Shown here piece after piece: positions 7,662 to 45,581 of a stretch of 64,000 bases of DNA. The translations under genes and the position numbers were made by a program. Positions within the stretch are counted from its first letter, which is position 1; every line of letters begins with the position of its first letter. The notes under the pieces were generated by a model that had not been told where the DNA came from, ran no database searches, and was given only the letters and a program-made list of their open reading frames with translations. The DNA comes from Rhynchopus sp. YZ270_cl-10 (Eukaryota), in NCBI GenBank assembly GCA_964035575.1, contig OZ037838.1, positions 558,001 to 622,000 on the forward strand. The letters run 5' to 3'.

Positions 7662-7948
7662 CTGTGTACCTGTGTACCTGTGTACCTGTGTACCTGTGTA
7701 CCTGTGTACCTGTGTACCTGTGTACCTGTGTACCTGTGTACCTGTGTACCTGTGTACCTGTGTACCTGTGTACCTGTGTACCTGTGTACCTGTGTACCTG
7801 TGTACCTGTGTACCTGTGTACCTGTGTACCTGTGTACCTGTGTACCTGTGTACCTGTGTACCTGTGTACCTGTGTACCTGTGTACCTGTGTACCTGTGTA
7901 CCTGTGTACCTGTGTACCTGTGTACCTGTGTACCTGTGTACCTGTGTA
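7662..7948. repeat. (CTGTGTAC)n minisatellite
   Basis: Perfect 8-mer array. Confidence 0.98.
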
Positions 7949-10347: not shown

Positions 10348-11411
10348 TCACTCACTGTTGTGTGGGTACAGATGTCTTGTCGCAATGACGCCATCTCGTT
10401 GCATGACCACAACAACACGTGAACACGGTGATATCGCAAAGGACGTATCTGAGTTATGCCGCATCACACGCACACAGGACGTTGTCACCACATCATACTG
10501 GTGCAGCACGTGTGTAGTCCTCACCACAAGGTACTTCCCACACGGGGTGAACTGCATGTCCCTGACACGCCCACCCACATCAACACTGCGAAGAGCCGCA
10601 CCACTCCAATCATAGAGGTGCGCGATACCAGAGACCGCCACAGCACAGACAGAGGCAGACCGTGAAAGCGCCACTGGACACCACCTACCCTCAGGCACAC
10701 ATGCCACAGCTTCACCTGTTCACATCCCAGAGACGTGCGTTCCTCTCAGTGTAGGAGGAGGTGATCACCCACCCACCACAGTGCGATACTGCCATTTTCG
10801 TGCACCCTTCGTGCGAGAGAGAGCGGAGCAACGTCAGGTCTTCGTCATACACAGAGACGACGTTGTGGCCCTTCGAGACAACAACACTGCCACACGCGAC
10901 CACTGACTCTGAAGTTCCGTCGACTTTGCGGACCACCTCCCCACCCGGAAGCGCAACCTCGAGAAAGTAATCCCCACACGCCAGGTAGCAGCGTGTCTTG
11001 CACTGCGAGATGGCAGGTGGACCGTACACTTCACTGTCCACTTCAAACGAGAAGACAGTTTCAAAGGTTTCTGTGTCGAAGCCACCAACATTCCTAGCAT
11101 AAATATATACGCAGAGCGTTCCACAACGCGACAGCGACAAGGTTCCCCTCTGCATTGCACTGTACTCAGCAGGACACTTGATGTCGGCAAAGCGGCGGGC
11201 AAGCACGACCTGCACCCCTGCATCAAACGCAGTGTCCTGCAGACGGCACGTCCCCTCCAGCACCTGCGTGCCGATGCGCATCTCGACAGACGCAGGCGAC
11301 AGCAAGCGCCGTGCACGCAACCTCCTTTGCCGCTGCAACGTCCGCCTCGCACGGCACCTCCACTGTCGCAGTCACGCCTGACTCTTCCAGCACAAAGGTC
11401 ACATCCATCAT
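10348..11411 (-). pseudogene. UBL + 7-bladed beta-propeller family, copy 1 (two 2-bp frameshifts)
   Basis: Full-length homology to intact copies; missing GA at ~11299 and TG at ~10718. Confidence 0.85.
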
Positions 11412-11604: not shown

Positions 11605-12726
11605 TCACTCACTGTTGTGTGGGTACAGATGTCTTGTTACAATGTGAGTACCTTCTTCCAATACCACAACAACACGTGAACACGGTGATATCACAAACTC
11701 CTCTGACCTTTGCGGGATCACACGCACACAGGACAGGGTCGCCACATCATACTGCTGCAGGCGTGCATAGTCATCAGTACCATAATCTTCTCCTGAATCA
11801 AATACCTTGACCACAAGGTACTTTCCACACGGGGTGAACTGCATACCCCTGTCATCCCCATCCACATCAACACTGCGAAGAGCCGCACCACTCCAATCAT
11901 AGAGCTGCACGTTCCCAGAGCACCCCACAGCAAAGACAGAGGCAGACCGTGAAAGCGCCACGAGACACCAGAACCCCCCGGGCACACATGCCACAGCTTC
12001 ACCTGTGTTCACATCCCACAGACGTGCCTTCTTCTCCTTCCTGGAGGATGTGATCACCCACCCACCACAGTCCGACACTGCCACCTCCTCACACTCTTCG
12101 TGCGAGAGAGAGCGGAGCAACGTCAGGTCTTCGTCATACACAGAGACGCCGTCTTTGCCCTCAGAGACAACAACACCGCCACACGCAAAGACTTTGAACG
12201 AGCTGCCTTCAGTATCGACTTTGCGGACCACCTCCCCACCCGGAAGCGCAACCTCGAGAAGGCCGTCCTCCCGATACGCCATGTAGCAGCGTGTCTTGCA
12301 CTGCGAGATGGCAGGCGGAGCCGTCGTCACTTTAGTGCCCACTACCGTTTTGAACGAGAAGACAGTGTTGAAGGTTTCTGTGTCGAAGCCAACAACATGT
12401 CCACTCTCGTACCAACTTTTGACGCAGAGTGACCCACAACGCGACAGTGACATGGTTCCCCTATGTGGTGCAGTGTACTCAGCAGGACACTTGATGTCAG
12501 CAAAGCGGCGGGCAAGCACGACCTGCACCCCTGCCTCAAACGCAGTGTCCTGCAGACGGCACGTCCCCTCCAGCACCTGCGTGCCGATGCGCATCTCGAC
12601 AGACGCAGGCGAGACAGCAAGCGCCGTGCACGCAACCTCCTTTGCCGCTGCAACGTCCGCCTCGCACGGCACCTCCACTGTCGCAGTCACGCCTGACTCT
12701 TCCAGCACAAAGGTCATATCCATCAT
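11605..12726 (-). CDS. UBL + 7-bladed beta-propeller protein, copy 2 (373 aa)
   Basis: Starts MMDMTFVLEESG; seven S/T-x-C-G-type blade turns; ends RHLYPHNSE. Confidence 0.9.
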   Translation of the reverse strand: MMDMTFVLEESGVTATVEVPCEADVAAAKEVACTALAVSPASVEMRIGTQVLEGTCRLQDTAFEAGVQVVLARRFADIKCPAEYTAPHRGTMSLSRCGSLCVKSWYESGHVVGFDTETFNTVFSFKTVVGTKVTTAPPAISQCKTRCYMAYREDGLLEVALPGGEVVRKVDTEGSSFKVFACGGVVVSEGKDGVSVYDEDLTLLRSLSHEECEEVAVSDCGGWVITSSRKEKKARLWDVNTGEAVACVPGGFWCLVALSRSASVFAVGCSGNVQLYDWSGAALRSVDVDGDDRGMQFTPCGKYLVVKVFDSGEDYGTDDYARLQQYDVATLSCVRVIPQRSEEFVISPCSRVVVVLEEGTHIVTRHLYPHNSE

Positions 12727-13053
12727 ATTGTTAAGGGGTCTCTTGTGTTTGATGTGAGGGTTGGTGGTGTCACTTCGCAACGACAAATAAGAAGGTTGGT
12801 GGGTTAAATACGTGTTTCAACAAAAGAGTCTGATAAAGAAAGCAATTTGAAGATACCCTGCGGCAAACACACAGATGTGACAAATAAAACTGATGGCTTG
12901 CCCGTACTGTGCTGTGAACGGGGAAGGTACACAACCGCTCATCAGAAGGTTTGTGTTTCCGCTTAAAACAAGTGTTTTTCTGCGCGTGTAATTTTATGGG
13001 GGAGAAGGCATTATGCTGTATGCTTCCTTCCTTCACAACGTTACACGTAACGC

Positions 13054-13609: not shown

Positions 13610-14731
13610 TCACTCACTGTTGTGTGGGTACAGATGCCTAGTTGCAATGCCGCCTGTTGCTTCATACCCGAACACAACGACACGTGAACACGGTGATATC
13701 GCAAATGCCCCATTCTCGGCTTGCGGAATTACAAGTACACAGGACAGGGTTGCCACATCATACTGGTGCAGCTGGACATCGCAATCCTCATATTCTTCGC
13801 CATCATCTGTACCATCTGTGTATGCCTCAACATCCACCCTGACCACGAGGTACTTCCCACACGGGGTGAACTGCATGCCCAAGACTTCGCCACGTATATC
13901 AACACTGCGAAGAGCCGCACCACTCCAATCATAGAGGTGCACGGTGTTTTCCTCCACCACAGCAAAGACAGAGGCAGACCGTGAAAGCGCCACCCCATCG
14001 CACCCCGGCACACATGCCACAGCTTCACCTGTGTTCACATCCCACAGACGTGCCTTTTCCTCTTCTTCAGAAGAGGTCATCACCCACCCACCACAGTCCG
14101 ACAGTGCCGTATTCAAAGACTTCTCGTTCGAGAGAGAGCGGAGCAACGTCAGGTCTTCGTCAAACACAGAGACGCCGTCTTTGCTTTCGGACACGACAAC
14201 ACCGCCACACGCAAACAATGCGAACGAGATGTCGTCGACTTTGCGGAGCACCTCCCCACCCGGAAGCGCAACCATGTGTAAGCCATCCCAACACGGCACG
14301 TAGCAGCGTGTCTTGCACTGCGAGATGGCAGGCGGACCGAGGTCATCATTGTCCATTTTCAACAAGAAGACAGTGTCAAAGGTTTCTGTGTCGAAGCAGC
14401 CAACATACTCAGCAATTTTTCCCGAAAATACGCAGAGCGTTCCACACCGCGACAGCGACAAGTGTTCTGTATCCTCACCATACACAGCAGGACACTTGAT
14501 GTCGGCAAAGCGGCGGGCGAGCACAACCTGCACCCCTGCACCAAACGCAGTGTCCTGCAGACGGCACGTCCCCTCCAGCACCTGCGTGCCGATGCGCATC
14601 TCGACAGACGCAGGCGAGACAGCAAGCGCCGTGCACGCAACCTCCTTTGCCGCTGCAACCTTCGCCTCGCACGGCACCTCCACTGTCGCAGTCACGCCTG
14701 ACTCTTCCAGCACAAAGGTCACATCCATCAT
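13610..14731 (-). CDS. UBL + beta-propeller protein, copy 3 (373 aa)
   Basis: Intact ORF, family motifs. Confidence 0.9.
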   Translation of the reverse strand: MMDVTFVLEESGVTATVEVPCEAKVAAAKEVACTALAVSPASVEMRIGTQVLEGTCRLQDTAFGAGVQVVLARRFADIKCPAVYGEDTEHLSLSRCGTLCVFSGKIAEYVGCFDTETFDTVFLLKMDNDDLGPPAISQCKTRCYVPCWDGLHMVALPGGEVLRKVDDISFALFACGGVVVSESKDGVSVFDEDLTLLRSLSNEKSLNTALSDCGGWVMTSSEEEEKARLWDVNTGEAVACVPGCDGVALSRSASVFAVVEENTVHLYDWSGAALRSVDIRGEVLGMQFTPCGKYLVVRVDVEAYTDGTDDGEEYEDCDVQLHQYDVATLSCVLVIPQAENGAFAISPCSRVVVFGYEATGGIATRHLYPHNSE

Positions 14732-14921: not shown

Positions 14922-16103
14922 TCACTCACTGTTGTGTGGGCACAGATGTCTCGTTACAATGTTGCCATCTGGTTGCAAAGACACAACAACACGTGAACAC
15001 GGCGATATCGCAAATGTACCTGCGCATTGCGGTATCACACGCACACAGGACATGGTTGACATATCATACTGGTGCAGGGGTGTATTATGCAGGCGTAAAT
15101 AGAAATCTTCATCATCTTCATCTTCATCTTCATCGTTCAAATCAAATACCGCTACCACAAGGTACTTCCCACACGGGGTAAACTGCATTCTATTAATATT
15201 CGCAGCCACGTCAACACTGCGAAGAGCCGCACCACTCCAATCAAAGAGGTGCACGCTCTTTTCCTCCCCCTCCACATCAAAGACAGAGGCAGACCGTGAA
15301 AGCGCCACTCTACACTGCCACCCGTCCGCAGGCACACATGCCACAGCTTCACCTGTGTTCACATCCCACAGACGTGCCTTCTTCTCCTTCCTGGAGGATG
15401 TGATCACCCACCCACCACAGTCTGATACTGCCACACGCCCACACTCTTCGTGCGAGAGAGAGCGGAGCAACGTCAGGTCTTCGTCATACACAGAGACGCC
15501 ATCTTTGCCCTTCGAGACAACAACCCTGCCACACGCGAATACTAAATACGAAGGGCCGTCGACTTTGCGGAGCACCTCCCCACCCGGAAGCGCAACCTCG
15601 TGCATACCTTCCTTGCACGCCATGTAGCAGCGTGTCTTGCACTGCGAGATGGCAGGCGGACCTCGACCAGATAAATCGATTTTCAACTCAAACGCAGTCT
15701 CGAAAGTTTCTGTGTCGAAGCCAACAACACGCGGGTACACGTAGTCATAATAAGAAGTATCATGTGAAAAAACGCAAAGCGTTCCACAAGGAGACAGCGA
15801 CACGTGTGCTGTCTGCGGTCGTCCGTAGCGAGTAGGGGGAGCGTAGACATTGTACTCAGCAGGACACTTGATGTCGGCAAAGCGGCGGGCAAGCACAACC
15901 TGCACCCCTGCACCAAACGCAGTGTCCTGCAGACGGCACGTCCCCTCCAGCACCTGCGTGCCGATGCGCATCTCGACAGACGCAGGCGAGACAGCAAGCG
16001 CCGTGCACGCAACCTCCTTTGCCGCTGCAACGTCCGCCTCGCACGGCACCTCCACTGTCGCAGTCACGCCTGACTCTTCCAGCACAAAGGTCACATCCAT
16101 CAT
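14922..16103 (-). CDS. UBL + beta-propeller protein, copy 4 (393 aa)
   Basis: Intact ORF, family motifs; acidic loop DEDEDEDDED. Confidence 0.9.
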   Translation of the reverse strand: MMDVTFVLEESGVTATVEVPCEADVAAAKEVACTALAVSPASVEMRIGTQVLEGTCRLQDTAFGAGVQVVLARRFADIKCPAEYNVYAPPTRYGRPQTAHVSLSPCGTLCVFSHDTSYYDYVYPRVVGFDTETFETAFELKIDLSGRGPPAISQCKTRCYMACKEGMHEVALPGGEVLRKVDGPSYLVFACGRVVVSKGKDGVSVYDEDLTLLRSLSHEECGRVAVSDCGGWVITSSRKEKKARLWDVNTGEAVACVPADGWQCRVALSRSASVFDVEGEEKSVHLFDWSGAALRSVDVAANINRMQFTPCGKYLVVAVFDLNDEDEDEDDEDFYLRLHNTPLHQYDMSTMSCVRVIPQCAGTFAISPCSRVVVSLQPDGNIVTRHLCPHNSE

Positions 16104-19626: not shown

Positions 19627-20787
19627 TCACTCACTGTTGTGTGGGTACAGATGCCTTGTTGCAATGGCTCCTGTTGCATCAAAAATGCTGTTTGTTGCTT
19701 CACACCCAAACACAACGACACGTGAACACGGTGATATCGCAAAGGACCCATAATGGGCGAGCGGGATCACACGCACACAGGACATGGTCGCCACATCATA
19801 CTGGTGCAGCTGTGCATCGTAATCATCGCGATCATCATATTCTTCGTCATCGTCTGTACCATCTGTGCATGCCTCAACATCCACCTTGACCACAAAGTAC
19901 TTCCCACATGGTGTGAACTGTATGCCCTCGACAGTCCCATCCACATCAACACTGCGAAGAGCCGCACCACTCCAATCATAGAGGTGCACGGTGTTTTCCT
20001 CCTCCACCACAGCAAAGACAGAGGCAGACCGTGAAAGCGCCACCCCTTCGCACAACTTTGCAAGCACACATGCCACAGCTTTACCTGTGTTCCCATCCCA
20101 CAGACGTGCCTTTTCCTCTTTTTCGGAAGAGATGATCGCCCACCCACCACAGTCCGACAGGGCCGTATTCATAAACCCTTTTTGCGAGACAAAGCGGAGC
20201 AACGTCAGGTCTTCGTCATACACAGAGACGCCGTCTTCATCTTGGGAGACAACAACACTGCCACACGCAAAAACTGCGTACGAGCGGCCGTCGACTTTGC
20301 GGACCACCTTCCCACCCGGAAGTGCAACCATGCGTAAGTCATCCCAACACGGCAGGTAGCAGCGTGTCTTGCACTGCGAGACGGCAGGCGGACTGCGTAC
20401 TTCACTGTCCACTTCAAACGAGAAGACAGCGTCGAAGGTTTCTGTGTCGAAGCCGCCAACACGCCCAGTCATTTCGCTCGAAAATACGCAGAGCGTTCCA
20501 CAACGCGACAGCGACAAGTGTTCTGCATCCTCACCATACTCAGCAGGACACTTGATGTCGGCAAAGCGGCGGGCAAGCACAACCTGCACCCCTGCACCAA
20601 ACGCAGTGTCCTGCAGACGGCACGTCCCCTCCAGCACCTGCGTGCCGATGCGCATCTCGACAGACGCAGGCGAGACAGCAAGCGCCGTGCACGCAACCTC
20701 CTTTGCCGCTGCAACGTCCGCCTCGCACGGCACCTCCACTGTCGCAGTCACGCCTGACTCTTCCAGCACAAAGGTCACATCCATCAT
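19627..20787 (-). CDS. UBL + beta-propeller protein, copy 5 (386 aa)
   Basis: Intact ORF, family motifs. Confidence 0.9.
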   Translation of the reverse strand: MMDVTFVLEESGVTATVEVPCEADVAAAKEVACTALAVSPASVEMRIGTQVLEGTCRLQDTAFGAGVQVVLARRFADIKCPAEYGEDAEHLSLSRCGTLCVFSSEMTGRVGGFDTETFDAVFSFEVDSEVRSPPAVSQCKTRCYLPCWDDLRMVALPGGKVVRKVDGRSYAVFACGSVVVSQDEDGVSVYDEDLTLLRFVSQKGFMNTALSDCGGWAIISSEKEEKARLWDGNTGKAVACVLAKLCEGVALSRSASVFAVVEEENTVHLYDWSGAALRSVDVDGTVEGIQFTPCGKYFVVKVDVEACTDGTDDDEEYDDRDDYDAQLHQYDVATMSCVRVIPLAHYGSFAISPCSRVVVFGCEATNSIFDATGAIATRHLYPHNSE

Positions 20788-21300: not shown

Positions 21301-22413
21301 TCACTCACTGTTGTGTGGGTACAGATGCCTTGTCTCAATGACGCCATTTGCTTGCATGACCACAAGAATACGTGAACACGGCGATATCGCGAAGCATGCA
21401 ACTGAGCTTGCAGAGATATGCGGTATCACATGCACACAGGACATGGTCGCCACATCATACTGGTGCAGCACGTGTGCATTGTCATCATCATATTCTTCCG
21501 GAACATACAGCTTGACCACAAGGTACTTCCCACATGGGGTGAACTGCATGCCTCCGACACCCCTACCAACATCACTCCTGCCAAGAACCACACCACTCCA
21601 ATCAAAGAGCTGCACGTTGCCAGAGCCCGCCACAGCAAAGACAGAGGCAGACCGTGAAAGCACGACAACACGGCTTGATACAGGCACACATGCCACAGCT
21701 TCACCTGTGTTCACATCCCACAGACGTGTGTTCTTCTCCTTCCTGGAGGAGGTGATCACCCACCCACCACAGTCCGACACTGCCACGCCCCAGCACGTTT
21801 CGTGCGAGAGAGAGCGGAGCAACGTCAGGTCTTCGTCGTACACAGAGACGCCGACTGTGCCTTGGGAGACAACAACACCGCCACACGCGAACACTGAGTA
21901 CGAGTAGTCGTCGACTTTGCGGACCACCTCCCCACCCGGAAGCGCAACCTTGAGAAGGCAATCCTCACACGCCAGGTAGCAGCGTGTCTTGCACCGTGAG
22001 ATGGCAGGCCGACCGTACACTTCATTGTCCACTTTGAACGAGAAGACAGTGTCGAAGGTTTCTGTGTCGAAGCCGCCAACATGCCCATCCCAGTGACTAT
22101 AGACGCAGAGCGTTCCACAACGCGACAGCGTCAACGTCGTCGCACGCATCTCTAAAATGTGTTCAGCAGGACACTTGATGTCGGCAAAGCGAGGGCGGGC
22201 AAGCACAACCTGCACCCCTGCACCAAACGCAGTGTCCTGCAGACGGCACGTCCCCTCCAGCACCTGCGTGCCGATGCGCATCTCGACAGACGCAGGCGAG
22301 ACAGCAAGCGCCGTGCACGCAACCTCCTTTGCCGCTGCAACGTCCGCCTCGCACGGCACCTCCACTGTCGCAGTCACGCCTGACTCTTCCAGCACAAAGG
22401 TCACATCCATCAT
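21301..22413 (-). CDS. UBL + beta-propeller protein, copy 6 (370 aa)
   Basis: Intact ORF, family motifs. Confidence 0.9.
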   Translation of the reverse strand: MMDVTFVLEESGVTATVEVPCEADVAAAKEVACTALAVSPASVEMRIGTQVLEGTCRLQDTAFGAGVQVVLARPRFADIKCPAEHILEMRATTLTLSRCGTLCVYSHWDGHVGGFDTETFDTVFSFKVDNEVYGRPAISRCKTRCYLACEDCLLKVALPGGEVVRKVDDYSYSVFACGGVVVSQGTVGVSVYDEDLTLLRSLSHETCWGVAVSDCGGWVITSSRKEKNTRLWDVNTGEAVACVPVSSRVVVLSRSASVFAVAGSGNVQLFDWSGVVLGRSDVGRGVGGMQFTPCGKYLVVKLYVPEEYDDDNAHVLHQYDVATMSCVHVIPHISASSVACFAISPCSRILVVMQANGVIETRHLYPHNSE

Positions 22414-22810
22414 ATTGTTAAGGGGTCTCTTGTGTTTGATGTGATGGTTGGTGGTGTCACTTCGCAACGACAAATAAGAAGGTTGGTGGGTTGAATACGT
22501 GTTTCAACAAACTCTGATAAGCAAGCAATTTGAAGATACCCTGCAAACACACAGGAGATGTGAAAAGAAACCTCATGGCTTGCCCGTACTGTGGTGTGAA
22601 CGGGGAAGGTACACAACCGCTTGTCGGCAGGCTTGTGTGTCCGTTTACAGCAACCACAAGAGCAGAACACACAAACGATAATGAGACCTGGAGTCTCTCT
22701 TGTTTCTTGAGTGACAGACGGGGGGCATTTTTTTGCGTGCATGTAATTTTTTTTGCTAGTACCTTGGGTTATATTCATCACCACCCTCCCTCCCCTCCCC
22801 TGGTCACACA

Positions 22811-23941
22811 TCACTCACTGTTGTGTGGGTACAGATGTCTCGTCACCAGAACGCCCCCTGAAGGCATGGAGACAACAACGCGTGAACACGGTGATATCGC
22901 AAAGTACTCAGATGACTCACCTCTCTCTTGCGATATCACACGCACACGGGACATGGTCGCCACATCATACTGGTGTAGGCCAGTAACGCATACCGAACCC
23001 CTTTCGTCACATTGTACATCAAAGGTCCTCACCACAAGGTACTCCCCACACGGGGTGAACTGTATTCCCTTGACATCCTCATGCACATCAACACTGCGAA
23101 GAGCCGCACCACTCCAATCATAGAGGTGCACGTCGTTTTCCTCCCCTGCCACAGCAAAGACAGAGGCAGACCGTGAAAGTGCCACCCCTCCACACCACCC
23201 CCCCTCCAGCGGTACACATGCCACAGCTTCACCTGTGTTCACATCCCACAGACGTGTGTTCTTCTCCTTGCTGGAGTAGGTGATCACCCACCCACCACAG
23301 TCCGACACTGCCATCTTCCTGCACCCTTCGTGCGAGAGAGAGTGGAGCAACGTCAGGTCTTCGTCATACACAGAGACGCCGTCTTTGCCCTTCGAGACAA
23401 CAACACCGCCACACGCGAACACTGACCCCGAGTAGCCGTCAACTTTGCGGACCACCTCCCCACCCGGAAGCGCAACCTCGAGAAGGCAATCCTCACACGG
23501 CAGGTAGCAGCGTGTCTTGCACTGCGAGATGGCAGGCGGACCTAGCACAATATGGGGTATGTTGAACTCCAAGACACGGGCAAAGGTTTCTGTGTCGAAG
23601 CCACCAACATTCGTATCATACACATAGATACAGAGCGTTCCACAACGCGACAGCGACATCGCTACGCTCATCGATGACTTCTTCACATTGTACTGAGCAG
23701 GACACTTGATGTCGGCAAAGCGGCGGGCAAGCACAACCTGCACCCCTGCATCAAACGCAGTGTCCTGCAGACGGCACGTCACCTCCAGCACCTGCGTGCC
23801 GATGCGCATCTCGACAGACGCAGGCGAGACAGCAAGCGCCGTGCACGCAACCTCCTTTGCCGCTGCAACGTTCGCCTCGCACGGCACCTCCACTGTCGCA
23901 GTCACGCCTGACTCTTCCAGCACAAAGGTCACATCCATCAT
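22811..23941 (-). CDS. UBL + beta-propeller protein, copy 7 (376 aa)
   Basis: Intact ORF from MMDVTF; upstream in-frame extension not conserved among copies. Confidence 0.9.
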   Translation of the reverse strand: MMDVTFVLEESGVTATVEVPCEANVAAAKEVACTALAVSPASVEMRIGTQVLEVTCRLQDTAFDAGVQVVLARRFADIKCPAQYNVKKSSMSVAMSLSRCGTLCIYVYDTNVGGFDTETFARVLEFNIPHIVLGPPAISQCKTRCYLPCEDCLLEVALPGGEVVRKVDGYSGSVFACGGVVVSKGKDGVSVYDEDLTLLHSLSHEGCRKMAVSDCGGWVITYSSKEKNTRLWDVNTGEAVACVPLEGGWCGGVALSRSASVFAVAGEENDVHLYDWSGAALRSVDVHEDVKGIQFTPCGEYLVVRTFDVQCDERGSVCVTGLHQYDVATMSRVRVISQERGESSEYFAISPCSRVVVSMPSGGVLVTRHLYPHNSE

Positions 23942-24261
23942 TGTGTTGCGTTGCTTCGTGAGAAGGTGCAAATCAGCACGTTTGCTCCACCACAAACGGA
24001 GGGAGTGATGAGGTGGGTGGGGGAGAGGTGTTGTTCTGTATTGCATGTTTGGGTTCTCGTTGTGGTTACCGAGACGGATGTACTCTCCCGAGACCACTAC
24101 ACGTCCACTGCGAGACGGACACGCAAGCAAATACAAAAGTAACCCGCGCAAGAAATCTATGAGTAAAATGGTAACCCTCGCTGTAGGTTGTGTGACACAC
24201 ACTACCAAGGGATATTCCGCAGCTGCACCACTGTCACTGTCTCTGGCTAAACCTAACGATA

Positions 24262-24376
24262 TCCACGTCACGCACACAGGACCAGGTCGCCATAAATACC
24301 CTGACCACAAGGTGCTTCCCGCACGGGGTGAGGTGCGTGCCCTCGACCGCCCATCCACATCAACACTGCGAAGAGC
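24262..24376 (-). pseudogene. Degenerate fragment of the propeller family (blade 6 region)
   Basis: cacgcacacaggac..gtcgcca..gaccacaaggtgcttcccgcacggggtga..catcaacactgcgaagagc. Confidence 0.65.
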
Positions 24377-29951: not shown

Positions 29952-31046
29952 TCACTCACTGTTGTGTGGGTACAGATGTCTTGTATCAATGACGCCATCT
30001 GATCGCAAAACCACAACAACGCGTGAACCTGGCGATATCGTAAATAAATCAACTGAGGTTTGCGTCATCGCATGCACACAGGACATGGTTGCCACATCAT
30101 ACTGGCGCAGCACGTGCATAGTCTTTACCACAAGGTACTTCCCACACGGGGTGAACTGCATGCCCCCGACACCCCCACCCACATCAACACTGCGAAGAGC
30201 CGCACCACTCCAATCATAGAGGTGCACACTGCTAGCGTTCTCCACAGCAAAGACAGAGGCAGACCGTAAAAGCGCCACGCAACACCACCTGCCCGCAGGC
30301 ACACATGCCACATCTTCACCTGTGTTCACATCCCACAGACGTACGTCTCTCTCCTTTTCAGAGGAGGTGATCACCCACCCACCACAGTCCGACACTGCAA
30401 CACTCCTGCACCTTTCGTGAGAGAGAGAGCGGAGCAACGTCAGGTCTTCGTCATACACAGAGACCCCGTCTTTGCCTCGGGAGACGACAACACCGCCACA
30501 CGCGGATACTGTGCACGAGGGGCCGTCGACTTTGCGGACCACCTCCCCACCCGGAAGCGCAACCTTGGCAAGACAATGCATACTCGCCAGGTAGCAGCGT
30601 GTCTTGCACCGTGAGATGGCAGGCGCACCCCACACCTCAATGTCTACTTTGAATTTGAAGGCAGGGCTGAAGGTGCCTGTATCGAGGCCGGTGACATATC
30701 CCGCATTCTGTGTTAAGAGGCAGAGTGCTCCACAAGGAGACAGCGATAAACCCACTATACTCATGTCCTGCCCGCCAGGTGGCACCTCTGCAGTGTACTC
30801 AGCAGGACACTTGATGTCGGCAAAGCGGCGGGCAAGCACAACCTGCACCCCTGCATCAAACGCAGTGTCCTGCAGACGGCACGTCCCCTCCAGCACCTGC
30901 GTGCCGATGCGCATCTCGACAGACGCAGGCGAGACAGCAAGCGCCGTGCACGCAACCTCCTTTGCCGCCGCAACGTCCGCCTCGCACGGCACCTCCACTG
31001 TCGCAGTCACCCCTGACTCTTCCAGCACAAAGGTCACATCCATCAT
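29952..31046 (-). CDS. UBL + beta-propeller protein, copy 8 (364 aa)
   Basis: Intact ORF, family motifs. Confidence 0.9.
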   Translation of the reverse strand: MMDVTFVLEESGVTATVEVPCEADVAAAKEVACTALAVSPASVEMRIGTQVLEGTCRLQDTAFDAGVQVVLARRFADIKCPAEYTAEVPPGGQDMSIVGLSLSPCGALCLLTQNAGYVTGLDTGTFSPAFKFKVDIEVWGAPAISRCKTRCYLASMHCLAKVALPGGEVVRKVDGPSCTVSACGGVVVSRGKDGVSVYDEDLTLLRSLSHERCRSVAVSDCGGWVITSSEKERDVRLWDVNTGEDVACVPAGRWCCVALLRSASVFAVENASSVHLYDWSGAALRSVDVGGGVGGMQFTPCGKYLVVKTMHVLRQYDVATMSCVHAMTQTSVDLFTISPGSRVVVVLRSDGVIDTRHLYPHNSE

Positions 31047-31373: not shown

Positions 31374-32513
31374 TCACTCGTTGTGGGGGTACAGATGTCT
31401 CGTCACAATGGCGGTGCTGTTGGACAACGCAAACATAACCACACGCGAACATGGTGATATCGCAAATGACTGACCTGTGACGTCCGGGATCACAAGTACA
31501 CAGGCCATCGTCGCCACATCATACTGTTGCAACTCTGCACATGAAGTTAACAATTGTGCATGACTCTGTACCCTGACCACAAGGTACTTCCCACACGGGG
31601 TGAATTGCATGCCGCCGACGTCACTAACCACATCAATCCTGCCATCAACACTGCGAAGAGCCGCACTACTCCAATCAAAGAGGTGCACGTAACCAGAGCA
31701 GCACACAGCAAAGACAGAGGCAGACCGTGAAAGCGCCACACAACACACCGCAGGCACACATGCCACAGCTTCACCTGTGTTCACATCCCACAGACGCGCG
31801 TTCCTGTTCTCCCAGGAGGAGGTGATCACCCACCCACCACAGTCTGAAACTGCCATGTCCCAGCACTCTGCATGCGAGAGAGAGCGGAGCAACGTCAGGT
31901 CTTCATCATACACAGAGACTGCGTCTTTGCCCTTCGAGACAACAACACCACCACACGCGAACACTGACCCCGAGTAGCCGTCGACTTTGCGGAGCACCTC
32001 CCCACCTGGAAGCGCAACCTCGCGAAGGCCTTCCTTGCACGCCATGTAGCAGCGTGTCTTGCACTGCGAGATGGCAGGCGGACCTCTACCAAGAAAATCA
32101 ATTTCCAACTCAAACGCAGTCTCGAAAGTTTCTGTGTCGAAGCCATCAACACACGTGGACACGACTCCATAATGGGAATTATGATGTGAAAAAACGCAAA
32201 GCGTTCCACAAGGAGACAGCGACACATGTGCTGTCTGCTGTCGTGCAGTGTCGACATTGTACTCAGCAGGACACTTGATGTCGGCAAAGTGAGGGCGGGC
32301 AAGCACAACCTGCACCCCTGCATCAAACGCAGTGTCCTGCAGACGGCACGTCCCCTCCAGCACCTGCGTGCCGATGCGCATCTCAACAGACGCAGGCGAG
32401 ACAGCAAGCGCCGTGCACGCAACCTCCTTTGCCGCTGCAACGCCCGCCTCGCACGGCACCTCCACTGTCGCAGTCACGCCTGACTCTTCCAGCACAAAGG
32501 TCACATCCATCAT
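31374..32513 (-). CDS. UBL + beta-propeller protein, copy 9 (379 aa)
   Basis: Intact ORF, family motifs. Confidence 0.9.
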   Translation of the reverse strand: MMDVTFVLEESGVTATVEVPCEAGVAAAKEVACTALAVSPASVEMRIGTQVLEGTCRLQDTAFDAGVQVVLARPHFADIKCPAEYNVDTARQQTAHVSLSPCGTLCVFSHHNSHYGVVSTCVDGFDTETFETAFELEIDFLGRGPPAISQCKTRCYMACKEGLREVALPGGEVLRKVDGYSGSVFACGGVVVSKGKDAVSVYDEDLTLLRSLSHAECWDMAVSDCGGWVITSSWENRNARLWDVNTGEAVACVPAVCCVALSRSASVFAVCCSGYVHLFDWSSAALRSVDGRIDVVSDVGGMQFTPCGKYLVVRVQSHAQLLTSCAELQQYDVATMACVLVIPDVTGQSFAISPCSRVVMFALSNSTAIVTRHLYPHNE

Positions 32514-33067: not shown

Positions 33068-34163
33068 TCACTCACTGTTGTGTGGGTACAGATGTCTTGT
33101 GTCAATAACGTTATCTGGTTGCAAAACCACAACAACACGTGAACACGGCGATATCGCAAATGAATCAACTGAGGTTTGCGTCATCACATGCACACAGGAC
33201 ATGGTCGCCACATCATACTGGCGCAGCATGTGCATAGTCTGTACCACAAGGTACTTCGCACACGGGGTGAACTGCATGCCCTGGACACTCCCACCCACAT
33301 CAACACTGCGAAGAGCCGCACCACTCCAATCAAAGAGCTGCACACTGCCAGTGTTCTCCACAGCAAAGACAGAGGCAGACCGTGAAAGCGCCACGCAACA
33401 CCACCAACCCGCAGGCACACATGCCACAGCTTCTCCTGTGTTCACATCCCACAGACGTACGTCTTGCTCTTTTTCAGAGGAGGTGATGACCCACCCACCA
33501 CAGTCCGACACTGCCACACTCCTGCACTGCTCATGCGAGAGAGAGCGGAGCAACGTCAGGTCTTCGTCATACACAGAGACCCCGTCTTTGCCTCGGGAGA
33601 CAACAACACCGCCACACGCGAACACTGTGCACGAGGGGCCGTCGACTTTGCGCAGCACCTCCCCACCCGGAAGCGCAACCTTGGCAAGACAATGCATACT
33701 CGGCATGTAGCAGCGTGTCTTGCACCGTGAGATGGCAGGCGCACCCCACACCTCAATGTCTACTTTGAACTTGAAGGCAGGGCTGAAGGTGCCTGTATCG
33801 AGGCCGGTGACATATCCTGCACTCTGTAAAGAGGCAGAGTGCTACACAAGGAGACAGCGATAAACCCTCTATATTGATGTCCTGCCCGCCAGGTGGCGCC
33901 TCTGCAGTGTACTCAGCAGGACACTTGATGTCGGCCAAGCGAGGACACGCAAGCACAACCTGCACCCCTGCATCAAACGCAGTGTCCTGCAGACGGCACG
34001 TCCCCTCCAGCACCTGCGTGCCGATGCGCATCTCGACAGACGCAGGCGAGACAGCAAGCGCCGTGCACGCAACCTCCTTTGCCGCTGCAACGTCCGCCTC
34101 GCACGGCACCTCCACTGTCGCAGTCACCCCTGACTCTTCCAGCACAAAGGTCACATCCATCAT
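33068..34163 (-). pseudogene. UBL + beta-propeller copy 10 (single 2-bp frameshift ~33826); close paralog of copy 8
   Basis: ctctgtaaagagg vs ttctgtgttaagagg in copy 8. Confidence 0.85.
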
Positions 34164-34511: not shown

Positions 34512-35588
34512 TCACTCACTGTTGTGTGGGTACAGATGCTTTGTCGCAATGACGCCACCCGGTTGCGCAGTCACAACAACACGTGAACACGGCGATATCA
34601 CAAATGACGTAGCATAGGTTTGCGGGACCACACGCACAGAGGACATGGTTGCCACATCATACTGGTGCAGCATGAGTGATGCCTTTACCACAAAGTACTT
34701 CCCACACGGGGTGAACTGCATGCCCCAGATATCCCCGTCCACATCAACACTGCGAAGAGCCGCACCACTCCAATCAAAGAGCTGCACGCTGGTTCCCACC
34801 CCCTTCACAGCAAAGACAGAGGCAGACCGTGAAAGCGCCACTCTACACCACCACCCCTTGGGAGTACATGCCACAGATTCACCTGTGTTCACATCCCACA
34901 GACGTGCGTTGTTCTCCTTGTTGGAGGAGGTGATCACCCACCCACCACAGTCCGACACTGCCACGTCCCAGCACCTTTCATGCGAGAGAGAGCGGAGCAA
35001 CGTCAGGTCTTCGTCATACACAGAGACGCCGTCTTCGCCTCGGGAGACAACAACACTGCCACACGCAAACACTGATTCCGAGTTGCCGTCGAATTTGCGG
35101 AGCACCTCCCCACCCGGAAGCGCAACCTCGAGAAGGCCTTCCACGCATGACAGGTAGCAGCGTGTCTTGCACTGCGATATGGCAGGGGGATATAGCACAA
35201 TATGGGGTAGGTTGAACTCAAAGACACAGGCAAAGGTTTCTGTGTCGAAGCCAACAACATTCATATCACAAAAATAGATGCAGAGTGTTCCACAACGCGA
35301 CAGCGACATCGCTACGCTCATCGATGACCTCTTGAAATTGTACTCAGCAGGACACTTGATGTCGGCAAAGCGGCGGGCAAGCACAACCTGCACCCCTGCA
35401 TCAAACGCAGTGTCCTGCAGACGGCACGTCCCCTCCAGCACCTGCGTGCCGATGCGCATCTCGACAGACGCAGGCGAGACAGCAAGCGCCGTGCACGCAA
35501 CCTCCTTTGCCGCTGCAACGTCCGCCTCGCACGGCACCTCCACTGTCGCAGTCACGCCTGACTCTTCCAGCACAAAGGTCACATCCAT
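34512..35588 (-). CDS. UBL + beta-propeller protein, copy 11 (358 aa)
   Basis: Intact ORF from MDVTF. Confidence 0.9.
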   Translation of the reverse strand: MDVTFVLEESGVTATVEVPCEADVAAAKEVACTALAVSPASVEMRIGTQVLEGTCRLQDTAFDAGVQVVLARRFADIKCPAEYNFKRSSMSVAMSLSRCGTLCIYFCDMNVVGFDTETFACVFEFNLPHIVLYPPAISQCKTRCYLSCVEGLLEVALPGGEVLRKFDGNSESVFACGSVVVSRGEDGVSVYDEDLTLLRSLSHERCWDVAVSDCGGWVITSSNKENNARLWDVNTGESVACTPKGWWCRVALSRSASVFAVKGVGTSVQLFDWSGAALRSVDVDGDIWGMQFTPCGKYFVVKASLMLHQYDVATMSSVRVVPQTYATSFVISPCSRVVVTAQPGGVIATKHLYPHNSE

Positions 35589-35855: not shown

Positions 35856-36983
35856 TCAGTAGGGGTACAGATGCCTCGTCACAAGGGCGGCACTTTCTCC
35901 TGACTCAAACATAACCACACGTGAACACGGTGATATCACAAACTCACTCCAGCATTTTGGTATCACACGCACACAGGACATGGTAGACATATCGTACTGG
36001 TGGAGGAGTGAAGCTTCGTCCTCAAACAGTGATTCTTTAATAAAGTCAACGACGACATACTTCCCACAGGGAGTGAACTGCACGCCATAGACATGGTAAT
36101 CCTCCTTTTTAATGCTGCCAAGAGCCACACCACTCCAGTCATAGAGCTGCACTTCTTGATTGCAACCCACAGCAAAGACAGAGGCAGACCGTGAAAGCGC
36201 TAGCCTTACCTCCCACGCCGCCGGAGTCATGCTTTCCACACATGCCACAGCTTCACCTGTGTTCACATCCCACAGGCATGTGTTCCCCTCCTTCTTGGAG
36301 GAGGTGAGCACCCACCCACCACAGTCCGACACTGCCGCTTTCACACAATCCCTGTGCGAGAGAGAGCGGAGCAACGTCAGGTCTTCGTCATACACAGAGA
36401 CGCCGTCTTTGCCCTTCGAAATAACAACACTGCCGCAGGCAAACACTGCTGTCGAGCATCCTGTAGCTTTGCGGAGCACCTCCCCACCAGGAAGCGCAAC
36501 CTTGCGTAAATCACCACCAGACGCCACGTAGCAGCGTGTCTTGCACCGTGAGATGGCAGGCGTGCTGGCAAGTGCTCCGAGGCAATTACGTTCAATTTCA
36601 AACTCGAAGGCAGTGTTGAAGGTTTGTGTGTCGCAGCCTACGCAGGTAATACGTCCATCGACAGCCACGACAACGAGGCAGAGCGTTCCACAACGAGACA
36701 GTGAGAAATTTTCCGCGTTGCCCTTCTGGATACTACACTCAGCAGGACACTTGATGTCGGCAAAGCGGCAGGCAAGCACAACCTGCACCCCTGCATCAAA
36801 CGCAGTGTCCTGCAGACGGCACGTCCCCTCCAGCACCTGCGTGCCGATGCGCATCTCGACAGACGCAGGCGAGACAGCAAGCGCCGTGCACGCAACCTCC
36901 TTTGCCGCTGCAACGTCCGCCTCGCACGGCACCTCCACTGTCGCAGTCACGCCTGACTCTTCCAGCACAAAGGTCACATCCAT
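35856..36983 (-). CDS. UBL + beta-propeller protein, copy 12 (375 aa; divergent propeller)
   Basis: Intact ORF, ends RHLYPY. Confidence 0.9.
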   Translation of the reverse strand: MDVTFVLEESGVTATVEVPCEADVAAAKEVACTALAVSPASVEMRIGTQVLEGTCRLQDTAFDAGVQVVLACRFADIKCPAECSIQKGNAENFSLSRCGTLCLVVVAVDGRITCVGCDTQTFNTAFEFEIERNCLGALASTPAISRCKTRCYVASGGDLRKVALPGGEVLRKATGCSTAVFACGSVVISKGKDGVSVYDEDLTLLRSLSHRDCVKAAVSDCGGWVLTSSKKEGNTCLWDVNTGEAVACVESMTPAAWEVRLALSRSASVFAVGCNQEVQLYDWSGVALGSIKKEDYHVYGVQFTPCGKYVVVDFIKESLFEDEASLLHQYDMSTMSCVRVIPKCWSEFVISPCSRVVMFESGESAALVTRHLYPY

Positions 36984-39777: not shown

Positions 39778-40974
39778 TCACTCACTGTTGCGTGGGTACA
39801 GATGCCTTGTTGCAATGGCTCCTGTTGCATCAAAAATGCTGTTTGTTGCTTCACACCCAAACACAACGACACGTGAACACGGTGATATCGCAAAGGACCC
39901 ATAATGGGCGAGCGGGATCACACGCACACAGGACATGGTCGCCACATCATACTGGTGCAGCTGTGCATTGTAATCATCGCGATCATCATATTCTTCGTCA
40001 TCATCTGTACCATCTGTGCATGCCTCAACATCCACCTTGACCACAAGGTACTTCCCACACGGGGTGAACTGTATGCCCTCGACAGTCCCATCCACATCAA
40101 CACTGCGAAGAGCCGCACCACTCCAATCATAGAGGTGCACGGTGTTTTCCTCCTCCACCACAGCAAAGACAGAGGCAGACCGTGAGAGCGCCACGAGACA
40201 CCATATATCCGCAGGCACACATGCCACAGCTTCACCTGTGTTCACATCCCACAGACGCGCGTTCCTCTTCTCCCAGGAGGAGGTGATCACCCACCCACCA
40301 CAGTCTGATACTGCCATGACCCAGCACTCTTCATGCGAGAGAGAGTGGAGCAACGTCAGGTCTTCGTCATACACAGAGACTGCGTCTTTGCCCTTCGAGA
40401 CAACAACACCGCCACACGCGAACACTGACCCCGAGTAGCCGACGACTTTGCGGACCACCTCCCCACCCGGAAGCGCAACCTCGAGAAGGCCTTCCTTGTT
40501 CGCCATGTAGCAGCGTGTCTTGCACCGTGAGATGGCAGGCGGACCTCTACCAAGAAAATCAATTTCCAACTCAAACGCAGTCTCGAAAGTTTCTGTGTCG
40601 AAGCCATCAACACACGTGGACACGACTCCATAATGGGAATTATGATGTGAAAAAACGCAAAGCGTTCCACAAGGAGACAGCGACACATGTGCTGTCTGCT
40701 GTCGTGCAGTGTCGACATTGTACTCAGCAGGACACTTGATGTCAGCAAAGCGAGGACAGGCAAGCACAACCTGCACCCCTGCATCAAACGCAGTGTCCTG
40801 CAGACGGCACGTCCCCTCCAGCACCTGCGTGCCGATGCGCATCTCGACAGACGCAGGCGAGACAGCAAGCGCCGTGCACGCAACCTCCTTTGCCGCTGCA
40901 ACGTCCGCCTCGCACGGCACCTCCACTGTCGCAGTCACGCCTGACTCTTCCAGCACAAAGGTCACATCCATCAT
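39778..40974 (-). CDS. UBL + beta-propeller protein, copy 13 (398 aa; chimera of copy 9-like and copy 5-like halves)
   Basis: Intact ORF; halves and flanks match two different paralogs. Confidence 0.9.
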   Translation of the reverse strand: MMDVTFVLEESGVTATVEVPCEADVAAAKEVACTALAVSPASVEMRIGTQVLEGTCRLQDTAFDAGVQVVLACPRFADIKCPAEYNVDTARQQTAHVSLSPCGTLCVFSHHNSHYGVVSTCVDGFDTETFETAFELEIDFLGRGPPAISRCKTRCYMANKEGLLEVALPGGEVVRKVVGYSGSVFACGGVVVSKGKDAVSVYDEDLTLLHSLSHEECWVMAVSDCGGWVITSSWEKRNARLWDVNTGEAVACVPADIWCLVALSRSASVFAVVEEENTVHLYDWSGAALRSVDVDGTVEGIQFTPCGKYLVVKVDVEACTDGTDDDEEYDDRDDYNAQLHQYDVATMSCVRVIPLAHYGSFAISPCSRVVVFGCEATNSIFDATGAIATRHLYPRNSE

Positions 40975-44444: not shown

Positions 44445-45581
44445 TCACCCACTGTTGTGTGGGTGCAGATGCCTTGTTGCAATGCTGTTTGTTGTTTCAC
44501 CCTCAAACACAACGACACGTGAACACGGTGATATCGCAAAGGACCCATAATGGGCTTGCGGTATCGCACCCACACGGGACATGGTCGCCACATCGTACTG
44601 GTGCAGTGCCTCGCAAAGTGTAGATTCTTCATCATCATCTGTGCCGACCGGATCATCCACCTGGAACACATCGCCAACCTTGACCACAAGGTACTTCCCA
44701 CACGGGGTGAACTGCATGCACCTGATACTATTCCCACTCATATCAACACTGCGAAGAGCCGCACCACTCCAATCATAGAGGTGCACGATGCCATTCTGCC
44801 CCTCCACAGCAAAGACAGAGCCAGACCGTGAAAGCGCCACTACTGCGCACCACCCCTCCGCACGCACACATGCCACAGCTTCACCTGTGTTCACATCCCA
44901 CAGACGTGCGTTGTCCGGACTGGAAGTGATCACCCAACCACCACAGTCCGACACTGCCATGTTGTAACACTCCTCGTGCGAGAGAGAGCGGAGCAACATC
45001 AGGTCTTCGTCATACACAGAGACGCCGTCTTTGCCCTTCGAGACAACACCACCACACGCGAACACTGACTCTGAGATGTCTTCGACCTTGCGGACCACCT
45101 CCCCACCCGGAAGCGCAACCTCGTGAAGTTGTTCCCAACACGCCAGGTAGCAGTGTGTCTTGCACTGCGAGATGGCAGGCGGACAGTACACTTCGAATGC
45201 GTCCACTTCAAACGAGAAGACAGTGTTGAAGGTTTCTGTGTCGAAGCCACCAACGTGCCCATTCCTGCTACAATAGACGCAGAGTGTTCCACAACGCGAC
45301 AGTGACAAGTTTCCCACACGAGTTGCAGTGTACTCAGCAGGACACTTGATGTCGGCAAAGCGGCAGGCAAGCACAACCTGCACCCCTGCATCAAACGCAG
45401 TGTCCTGCAGACGGCACGTCCCCTCCAGCACCTGCGTGCCGATGCGCATCTCGACAGACGCAGGCGAGACAGCAAGCGCCGTGCACGCAACCTCCTTTGC
45501 CGCTGCAACGTCCGCCTCGCACGGCACCTCCACTGTCGCAGTCACGCCTGACTCTTCCAGCACAAAGGTTACATCCATCAT
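44445..45581 (-). CDS. UBL + beta-propeller protein, copy 14 (378 aa)
   Basis: Intact ORF, family motifs. Confidence 0.9.
   Translation of the reverse strand: MMDVTFVLEESGVTATVEVPCEADVAAAKEVACTALAVSPASVEMRIGTQVLEGTCRLQDTAFDAGVQVVLACRFADIKCPAEYTATRVGNLSLSRCGTLCVYCSRNGHVGGFDTETFNTVFSFEVDAFEVYCPPAISQCKTHCYLACWEQLHEVALPGGEVVRKVEDISESVFACGGVVSKGKDGVSVYDEDLMLLRSLSHEECYNMAVSDCGGWVITSSPDNARLWDVNTGEAVACVRAEGWCAVVALSRSGSVFAVEGQNGIVHLYDWSGAALRSVDMSGNSIRCMQFTPCGKYLVVKVGDVFQVDDPVGTDDDEESTLCEALHQYDVATMSRVGAIPQAHYGSFAISPCSRVVVFEGETTNSIATRHLHPHNSG

What the first reader, a model, noticed from the sequence alone, without database searches (positions are those of the whole stretch)
11605..12480. Variation is confined to loops mapping to one face of the propeller
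Across all copies (coordinates show copy 2), the A-B turns and C-D segments (FDTETF, EVALPGGEV, VSVYDEDLTLL, LWDVNTGEAVAC, YDWSGAAL, QYDVAT) are almost fixed, often including synonymous sites. The segment just before strand A and the B-C loop of each blade differ radically with in-frame indels (e.g. after KCPAEY: TAPHRGTM / GEDAEHL / NVYAPPTRYGRPQTAHV / TAEVPPGGQDMSIVGL). In WD40 propellers the D-A and B-C loops form the top ligand-binding face (established). The result resembles antibody framework/CDR organisation with up to 14 variable loops.
Basis: partly seen in the sequence, partly recalled or inferred. Interest (0 to 1): 0.85.

Follow-up and report, generated by a model that had tools for sequence, protein, structure and literature searches.

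The report
Hypervariable ubiquitin-like propeller gene repertoire
A single-celled flagellate carries 18 tandem copies here, and likely over a hundred in all, of a gene for a predicted propeller-shaped protein whose 14 loops on one face change faster than neutral drift and are reshuffled between copies, likely forming a library of binders inside the cell for fast-changing foreign targets.

Summary
Observation confirmed. The window holds 18 intronless same-strand copies (15 intact) of a gene for a ubiquitin-like domain plus a predicted seven-bladed WD40-type propeller. At least 120 close paralogues exist, each its own 90% cluster. Variation alternates in exactly 14 segments, the D-A and B-C loops (entropy 2.07 bits on the top face, 0.33 on the bottom; 52 of 55 indel blocks on top). 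The top face is positively selected: omega 1.33-1.47 against 0.35 on the bottom, and 36 of 93 top codons against 0 of 110 bottom codons with dN>dS. Neutral simulations with recombination and rate variation never reached this. One correction: synonymous divergence is also about 2.6-fold higher on top, and half the framework segments are not synonymously fixed. This fits recombination homogenising the scaffold, not a mutator. One copy is a clean crossover chimera. A euglenozoan spliced leader joined to a family transcript (one contig) gives the lineage and indicates expression. The evolutionary pattern is known from Podospora HNWD receptors, but this family lacks NACHT/HET domains and near-identical blades. 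Ligand and function are untested; intracellular non-self recognition is the best guess.

The parts
11605..12726 (-). Copy 2, intact, 373 aa: ubiquitin-like domain + linker + 7-blade propeller
12511..12726 (-). Copy 2 N-terminal ubiquitin-like domain (res 1-72); 97% identical among paralogues, omega about 0.34; no C-terminal di-glycine
11629..12480 (-). Copy 2 predicted seven-bladed propeller (res 83-366, velcro closure by strand 83-85)
11644..12474 (-). The 14 hypervariable top-face segments of copy 2: 12454-12474, 12397-12420, 12316-12351, 12262-12273, 12193-12207, 12151-12162, 12082-12099, 12025-12042, 11962-11979, 11911-11925, 11845-11862, 11761-11808, 11698-11712, 11644-11664
10348..11411 (-). 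Copy 1, frameshifted at two places, shorter than intact copies
13610..14731 (-). Copy 3, intact
14922..16103 (-). Copy 4, intact
19627..20787 (-). Copy 5, intact; its 3' half matches copy 13
21301..22413 (-). Copy 6, intact
22427..22428 (-). AG trans-splice acceptor 13 nt upstream of the ATG, where a run X6 contig continues as a euglenozoan spliced leader; copy 2 has the same flank (AG at 12740-12741), so the transcript cannot be assigned to one copy
   Evidence: (table 7)
22811..23941 (-). Copy 7, intact
24294..24376 (-). Fragment of a copy
29952..31046 (-). Copy 8, intact
31374..32513 (-). Copy 9, intact; its 5' part and upstream flank match copy 13
33068..34163 (-). Copy 10, one frameshift; about 90% identical in protein to copy 8
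34512..35588 (-). Copy 11, intact
35856..36983 (-). Copy 12, intact
39778..40974 (-). Copy 13, intact; chimera of a copy-9-like 5' part and a copy-5-like 3' part, switch between codon 254 and 268 (copy 2 numbering)
44445..45581 (-). Copy 14, intact
45866..46963 (-). Copy 15, intact
47781..48765 (-). Copy 16, internal deletion with frameshift; about 93% identical in protein to copy 18
49417..50544 (-). Copy 17, intact
51372..52508 (-). Copy 18, intact
52706..52925 (-). Internally deleted fragment of a copy, next to an 8-bp microsatellite

Best explanation
This is a large tandem family of genes in a euglenozoan flagellate, each encoding a nearly constant ubiquitin-like domain and a predicted seven-bladed propeller whose 14 top-face loops are under diversifying selection and are reassorted between copies by recombination, and it likely serves as a germline library of intracellular binders for fast-evolving foreign proteins. 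Shown here: the array, the one-face variation, dN>dS on that face, purifying selection on the other face, mosaic copies, and broken copies (birth and death). Inferred: unequal crossing-over and gene conversion keep the scaffold alike and make new loop combinations, while divergent loops resist conversion, so dS rises near them. Also inferred: the proteins are cytosolic, since no signal or membrane segment is apparent in the sequence. Each copy would grip a different ligand on its top face, and the constant ubiquitin-like domain and bottom face would dock on one conserved host partner. That partner is most likely part of the ubiquitin-proteasome or AAA-ATPase machinery, which would remove the bound target, as F-box and BTB adaptors do. 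The likely targets are proteins of viruses, endosymbionts or other intruders. Neither ligand nor partner was identified.
For: Array and family size: (best 120 hits 68-77% identical besides the query itself; 87 of 120 on a contig of the same length as the query's, counted by me from the listing). Fold: propeller pLDDT mostly 80-98; Foldseek to WD40 structures, E about 1e-14. One-face variation. Selection: class-level omega 1.33-1.47 on 93 gap-free top codons vs 0.35 on 110 bottom codons, under two codon-frequency models, with and without multi-nucleotide changes, per-segment trees. 0 of 99 neutral simulations with recombination reached 1.33. A dual-rate grid test gave 36 of 93 top, 2 of 53 mid and 0 of 110 bottom codons with P(dN>dS)>0.9, against at most 5 top codons in 44 neutral simulations with recombination and site-rate variation. 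The seven near-constant-length loops alone give omega 1.41 (LRT 5.9). Recombination: PHI-type test p = 0.002 and decay of tree similarity along the gene; chimeric copy 13; 12 of 120 proteins share disjoint loop tracts with two different partners; all 120 have a unique 14-loop combination. No mutator signature: no base bias, and 4-fold diversity falls from 0.27 next to selected codons to 0.08 at 9-20 codons and 0.02 beyond, the last bin being mostly the ubiquitin-like domain. Constant end: ubiquitin-like homology, omega 0.34 (LRT 4.8). In five more divergent subfamilies identity to copy 2 is 0.61-0.82 in that domain, 0.59-0.78 on the bottom face and 0.20-0.24 on top. Lineage and expression: spliced-leader junction.
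Against: Average omega on top is only modestly above 1, and dS there is 2.8-3.1 vs 1.1 on the bottom. Plain NG86 gives 1.11 for the loops overall, and below 1 for six of the 14. The indel-rich loops alone are not significant (omega 1.26, LRT 2.8). In four close pairs, two of which include a broken copy, top-face codons show 26 non-synonymous vs 12 synonymous differences (pN/pS about 0.65; bottom 0.25), so recent change does not show omega>1. The M1a/M2a test is unreliable here: 13 neutral simulations gave LRT up to 38 vs 40.8 observed. Misalignment was not simulated. The ubiquitin-like assignment is indirect: Pfam hits occur only in distant paralogues and below the curated cut-off, and both structure models of that domain were low-confidence. 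Part of its constancy may be conversion and not function. Nothing tested ligand, partner, location or induction. Expression rests on one contig of a run that is not on record as RNA.
Confidence: 0.55

Rival explanations
1. Internal conflict or self-recognition: the propellers chase proteins of selfish elements (the genome carries retrotransposons), or act in mate or kin recognition like Podospora het genes, not in defence against outside intruders.
For: Same selection signature. HNWD genes with this signature work in allorecognition (PMC1805685, passages). A non-LTR RNase H ORF lies at the window start.
Against: Allorecognition loci are usually few and polymorphic between individuals, whereas here over a hundred paralogues diverge within one assembly. 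Loops 1-2 of copy 2 are identical in 4 of 4 runs, although these may be one strain. No NACHT or death domain was seen.
Confidence: 0.15
2. Offensive effectors: the ubiquitin-like domain is an export or translocation header, as in Crinkler-type effectors (recalled, not tested), and the propellers bind proteins of prey or host cells.
For: A constant N-terminal ubiquitin-like header on a variable C-terminal part, in a large recombining array.
Against: No signal peptide is apparent in the sequence and no enzymatic or toxin domain was found. The bottom face is also under purifying selection, as expected of an intracellular complex.
Confidence: 0.12
3. No selection for change: loops are merely unconstrained, and conversion homogenises only where copies still align, so omega is about 1 in loops.
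For: dS is raised in the loops; close pairs give pN/pS below 1 on top; 3 of 18 copies are broken.
Against: Neutral simulations never reproduced the observed omega or site counts (0 of 99; at most 5 vs 36 sites in 44 runs). Bottom-face loops are just as exposed yet conserved and free of indels. Within top loops conserved codons alternate with hypervariable ones, e.g. 175/176/177 at 3.2/0.7/3.7 bits and 211/212/213 at 2.7/0.4/3.0 bits.
Confidence: 0.08
4. Ordinary cellular adaptors related to the ribosome-assembly factors Ytm1/Rsa4 (ubiquitin-like domain + WD40, pulled by the AAA-ATPase Rea1), expanded to serve many endogenous clients.
For: The same domain order is known (PMC8122580, passages).
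Against: Those are essential, conserved factors. Here there are over a hundred fast-evolving paralogues with positive selection. The NLE family was not among the families shown, and no Rsa4/Ytm1 chain was among the best 60 PDB hits.
Confidence: 0.06
5. A targeted mutator (DGR-like or deaminase-like) diversifies the loops.
For: dS is raised in loops; transversions exceed transitions on top (291 vs 195), which saturation and selection also explain.
Against: No base bias (alternative alleles per site A 1.9, C 1.7, G 1.8, T 1.5); a gradient instead of sharp borders; conserved codons inside loops; identical loops across runs, although contigs drop rare variants.
Confidence: 0.04

Closest known systems
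Podospora anserina HNWD/NWD NLRs (het-d, het-e, het-r); PMC1805685 and PMC13449251 (passages)
   Same: WD40 propeller with positively selected codons in the d-a loop and b-c turn on the top face, in pairs flanking a conserved codon; the rest homogenised by exchange between family members; pseudogenes in the family.
   Different: HNWD has about 10 genes with HET and NACHT domains, blades 80-100% identical to each other, four selected positions per blade, and repeat-unit shuffling. Here there are at least 120 stand-alone genes, an N-terminal ubiquitin-like domain, blades unlike each other, exchange between genes at the same position, and loops that vary in length (loop 12: 4-28 aa, loop 1: 6-16 aa).
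Expanded F-box, MATH-BTB and BTB-Kelch cullin adaptors of nematodes, plants and other animals (recalled; the search did not return the primary paper)
   Same: A constant module facing the ubiquitin system joined to a positively selected binding domain; tandem birth-and-death families proposed to target foreign proteins.
   Different: No F-box, BTB or SOCS box was seen. The constant module is a ubiquitin-like fold with no known partner, in a unicellular euglenozoan.
Ytm1/WDR12 and Rsa4/NLE1 (ubiquitin-like domain + WD40); PMC8122580 (passages)
   Same: Domain order, and a ubiquitin-like domain that would serve as a docking handle and not as a conjugated tag.
   Different: Those are essential conserved ribosome-assembly factors that bind Rea1 through a glutamate. 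No specific similarity was found here, and the family is large and hypervariable.
Antibody V domains
   Same: Framework/loop alternation, with length-variable loops gathered on one surface.
   Different: Different fold; diversity lies in separate germline genes; no sign of somatic assembly or hypermutation.

Membership tests
WD40-type seven-bladed beta-propeller | Seven four-stranded blades with velcro closure, structurally matching WD40 proteins | tested here: met
   28 strands in the AF2 model; Foldseek hits to G-beta, WDR5, LIS1 and PkwA at E about 1e-14
WD40-type seven-bladed beta-propeller | Sequence match to WD40 repeats / DHSW tetrad | tested here: inconclusive
   PF00400 matched 83 of 120 at E<=0.05, best 1.3e-6; copy 2 scores 15.9 bits vs cut-off 27; P0156 and P0274 pass the cut-off; only blade 4 shows tetrad-like H, S/T, E and W residues (my reading)
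Ubiquitin-like domain | Homology to the ubiquitin family | tested here: inconclusive
   A profile of 7 distant paralogue N-termini finds residues 2-72 of copy 2 at 65.6 bits (best of 2000 shuffles 11.4). Those N-termini hit PF00240 (4 of 15 proteins, best E 7e-5, 23 bits vs cut-off 25.4) and Rad60-SLD. Strand-strand-helix-strand order fits, but the models were low-confidence and the fold search uninformative
Ubiquitin-like modifier (conjugated) | C-terminal di-glycine after the domain | tested here: not met
   0 of 15 intact copies have GG in residues 69-82
HNWD / fungal NLR | NACHT or NB-ARC domain and HET-type effector domain | tested here: not met
   No such Pfam hit in the 4 window copies scanned in full or among the 25 of 35 families shown for 120 proteins; the 373 residues are accounted for by the two domains
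HNWD / fungal NLR | High internal conservation: blades 80-100% identical within a gene | tested here: not met
   blastn of copy 2 against the window shows no off-diagonal match inside copy 2 at E<=1e-5; blade sequences differ
HNWD / fungal NLR | Positive selection on d-a and b-c top-face positions | tested here: met
HNWD / fungal NLR | Sequence exchange between family members | tested here: met
Ytm1/WDR12, Rsa4/NLE1 | N-terminal ubiquitin-like domain followed by a WD40 propeller | tested here: met
Ytm1/WDR12, Rsa4/NLE1 | NLE domain with the MIDAS-binding glutamate | tested here: inconclusive
   PF08154 not among the families shown (25 of 28; 25 of 35); the glutamate position was not aligned by any search
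Cullin-RING substrate adaptors (F-box, BTB, SOCS, DCAF) | F-box, BTB or SOCS domain, or WDxR motif | tested here: not met
   None among the Pfam hits shown; a loose W/Y-D-x-R/K pattern occurs in only 2 of 15 copies
Cullin-RING substrate adaptors (F-box, BTB, SOCS, DCAF) | Binding to a ligase or proteasome and degradation of the bound target | not testable with these tools
   No host partner sequence was available and no ligand is known
Diversity-generating retroelement target | Adenine-specific variation from a template repeat beside a DGR reverse transcriptase | tested here: not met
   No base bias; the only RT-related ORF seen is an RNase H-bearing one at 31-1458; a template repeat was not searched for separately

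The most novel reading that the evidence does not exclude
A free-living euglenozoan (probably a diplonemid) has a germline, recombination-shuffled immune repertoire of hundreds of intracellular 14-loop propeller binders. Each is coupled by an invariant ubiquitin-like handle straight to protein-degradation machinery, without an F-box/BTB adaptor or an NLR switch. This would be a protist counterpart of TRIM/F-box-style intracellular immunity against giant viruses or endosymbionts, and a natural library of one-scaffold binders.
Probability: 0.3. Interest if true: 0.88.

Novelty: new variant of a known kind. Interest (0 to 1): 0.62.

Why it matters
Little is known of how single-celled eukaryotes recognise intruders, and a family of over a hundred one-scaffold proteins under diversifying selection is a direct, testable candidate. 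It shows that the HNWD recipe (homogenised WD40 scaffold, selected top face) also works at whole-gene scale without an NLR, and with loop-length variation. The nearly invariant ubiquitin-like domain is a single bait whose partner would reveal the output of the whole family. The family also shows which positions of a WD40-type scaffold tolerate free substitution and long insertions, which is useful for binder design. I found no description of this family in five literature searches, in the Diplonema papillatum genome paper (0 occurrences of WD40 or ubiquitin in the main text; supplement hits shown were unrelated genes, 4 of 8 occurrences seen), or among named database entries. The library lacks most subscription papers.

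Tried and rejected
No whole genome is held, so the genome-wide copy number and DNA of copies outside the window could not be had; all codon work rests on the 15 intact window copies. The 3 frameshifted copies and all gapped columns were left out of the codon models; alignment columns under 50% occupied were left out of the entropies. The 120 proteins are the best 120 of 414 hits and so lean towards copy 2. M1a vs M2a was run and then set aside because neutral data with site-rate variation gave LRTs up to 38. A single-sequence fold of the N-terminal domain was poor (pLDDT 59) and its fold search gave nothing above Z 4.9. A phmmer search of the P0156 N-terminus against PDB found nothing. The ESM Atlas returned only WD40-type look-alikes at 0.81-0.83, which are leads only; the N-terminal query did not complete four times. 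No relatives were found in JGI metagenome contigs or IMG/VR (could not be run); these pattern scans find close relatives only. The six longer proteins carrying this N-terminus are one two-unit read-through, four copies with a shared C-terminal extension and one with a B-box gene in front; they may be gene-calling fusions. The retroelement search gave no informative name. No run is on record as RNA. Run X6 lacks cover over 24092-24400 where X3 has it; this is not used as evidence. Small-share runs X7 and X8 gave only short pieces. No Rfam family and no tRNA. No earlier notes exist on this genome or sequence. No complex prediction was sent, as no candidate partner was at hand.

Full report
What is there. 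The finding's coordinates cover residues 83-373 of a 373-aa minus-strand ORF at 11605-12726. tblastn and blastn find 18 full-length copies between 10348 and 52508, all on the minus strand and without introns, plus two fragments. Fifteen are intact; three have broken frames, and single-base breaks could also be assembly errors. Gaps between neighbours are 194-887 bp in 13 of 17 cases, and 13 of the 18 copies share the same 5' flank with a pyrimidine-rich tract (my count). A protein search gave 414 hits. The best 120 are the query and 119 proteins 68-77% identical to it, almost all single-member 90% clusters; none is named, and those with a source shown are from ENA. By my count 87 lie on a contig of the query's length and 26 on one other. 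A profile search added more divergent subfamilies and full-length relatives at about 28% identity with the same layout, also unnamed ENA singletons, one on a contig length shared with close members. The family therefore looks lineage-restricted and old within that lineage.

Host and expression. A contig of run X6 aligns up to 22427 and then continues with letters that read, on the gene's strand, CTACAGTTTCTGTACTTCATT, joined at an AG 13 nt upstream of the ATG. The motif is absent from the window. It matches the conserved 3' part of euglenozoan spliced leaders printed for prokinetoplastids (PMC7859406, passages) and Trypanosoma brucei (bioRxiv 10.64898/2026.10.18.760011, passages). So the host is a euglenozoan and at least one family member is trans-spliced. 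This rests on one contig of a run not on record as RNA, and the copy cannot be told. X6 also holds loop-spanning pieces of copies 5/13, 6 and 7 with no differing letter (table 8), which would mean several copies are transcribed if X6 is RNA. A diplonemid is my guess from recall of their leader and proteins. Unidirectional gene clusters are described for Diplonema papillatum (PMC10161547, passages).

Structure. AlphaFold2 on the 120-sequence alignment gives 28 strands from residue 83 to 366 at high confidence, and Foldseek matches them to WD40 propellers. The first 76 residues are low-confidence. A profile of seven distant N-termini recognises residues 2-72 far above 2000 shuffles, and those N-termini hit Pfam ubiquitin and Rad60-SLD just under the cut-offs. 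The domain is therefore likely ubiquitin-like. It has no di-glycine.

Where the variation lies. I classed positions from the model's strand limits: D-A and B-C loops plus the adjoining two strand residues as top, A-B and C-D loops plus theirs as bottom (convention in PMC3195729, passages). Entropy is 2.07 vs 0.33 bits; every one of the 14 top connections (1.2-3.0 bits) exceeds every one of the 13 bottom ones (0.1-0.6). Of 55 gap blocks, 52 are on top. Most loops have 80-118 distinct sequences among 120 proteins, and all 120 combinations are unique. The loops are enriched in D, E, G, N, K and H, with mean net charge -8.7; loop 12 is strongly acidic. The loops around blades 3-4, where tetrad-like residues persist, vary least in length.

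Selection. With my own codon-model code and a separate tree for each of 14 segments, top codons give omega 1.33-1.47 (LRT against 1: 7-14) and bottom codons 0.35 (LRT 42-43). Tree-length dS is 2.8-3.1 on top and 1.1 on the bottom, so synonymous divergence is raised too. Neutral simulations with two breakpoints per segment gave omega 1.02 +/- 0.10, and none of 99 reached 1.33. A site model (M2a) looked strong but failed calibration when site rates varied, so I discarded it. A dual-rate grid test, which lets dS vary by site, gave 36 of 93 top, 2 of 53 mid and 0 of 110 bottom codons at P>0.9; 44 neutral simulations gave 0-5. The flagged codons include 132/135, 175/177, 213, 291/293 and 340/342, which by my register are the R1-2 and R1 hot-spot positions of PMC3419727 (passages). 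They often flank a conserved codon, as in HET-E (PMC1805685, passages). Against: NG86 gives only 1.11, indel-rich loops alone are not significant, close pairs give pN/pS about 0.65 on top, and misalignment was not simulated.

Recombination. Incompatibility rises with distance (p = 0.002) and segment trees lose similarity along the gene (0.30 for neighbours, about 0.1 at 4-9 segments, rising again to about 0.2 at the longest separations). Copy 13 follows copy 9 to codon 254 and copy 5 from codon 268, flanks included, which is a crossover product. Among 120 proteins, adjacent loops are shared 97 times against 37 (maximum 54) when loops are permuted, tracts are mostly two loops long, and 12 proteins have two different partners. 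Four-fold diversity falls with distance from selected codons and shows no base bias. This fits conversion that is efficient in long conserved stretches and blocked near divergent loops. It does not fit a mutator. Loops 1-2 of copy 2 are letter-identical in four runs from three studies, which may be one strain.

How it most likely works. Shown: a duplicating, recombining, partly dying family with one conserved end and one selected face. Inferred: top faces bind varied, changing ligands, and the ubiquitin-like domain and bottom face bind one constant host partner, probably in protein removal. The ligands are probably foreign. I put about 0.9 on the evolutionary account and 0.55 on the whole, with internal conflict (0.15), effector (0.12), neutrality (0.08), Ytm1/Rsa4-like housekeeping (0.06) and mutator (0.04) as rivals.

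Comparison. It evolves like Podospora HNWD receptors but is not one: no NACHT or HET domain, no near-identical blades (PMC13449251, passages). It is built like Ytm1/Rsa4 (PMC8122580, passages) without evidence of kinship. It would work like expanded F-box/BTB adaptors (recalled) without their domains. Unchecked notes of this scan describe similar one-face hypervariable Kelch and propeller arrays in other genomes, so the pattern recurs; the combination of a ubiquitin-like handle, a WD40-type scaffold, this family size and a euglenozoan host is what is new. Verdict: real, selected, a new variant of a known kind; function untested; interest 0.62.

Noticed in passing
window 31-1458 (+): C-terminal part of a non-LTR retrotransposon ORF with RNase H; its cluster has 7 members and its relatives are 24-32% identical and nearly all unnamed.
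   Followed up: partly
window 3748-4525, 7662-7948, 17381-17903, 52932-53149: Long, nearly perfect microsatellites with 5-, 8-, 9- and 8-bp units (156, 36, 58 and 27 copies); the last abuts a broken family fragment.
   Followed up: no
window 28681-29685 (-): Ankyrin-repeat gene inside the array.
   Followed up: no
window 57084-58019 (-): 311-aa ORF with a hydrophobic C-terminal segment and no clear Pfam family.
   Followed up: no
window 61153-62285: Three tandem copies of a 379-bp unit, 95% alike, strongly A/C-skewed.
   Followed up: no
framework segments of all copies: Synonymous diversity is uneven: the C-D segments of blades 2-5 differ at 3-7% of 4-fold sites, while six of seven A-B segments differ at 15-34%. 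The longer C-D stretches may favour conversion, but the short A-B segment of blade 5 (4%) does not fit.
   Followed up: partly
P0272, P0273, P0275, P0276: Four paralogues lack the usual stop and continue into a shared C-terminal extension of about 300-350 aa with no Pfam family in the one scanned; possibly a fused effector domain or a read-through.
   Followed up: no
A-B turns of all blades: Conserved S-x-C-G/K-type turns put six cysteines on the constant face; intact copies have 17-24 cysteines.
   Followed up: no
window 24784-25254 and 53130-53951: The same non-family sequence occurs upstream of both gene fragments, suggesting a duplicated block or repeat that breaks copies.
   Followed up: no
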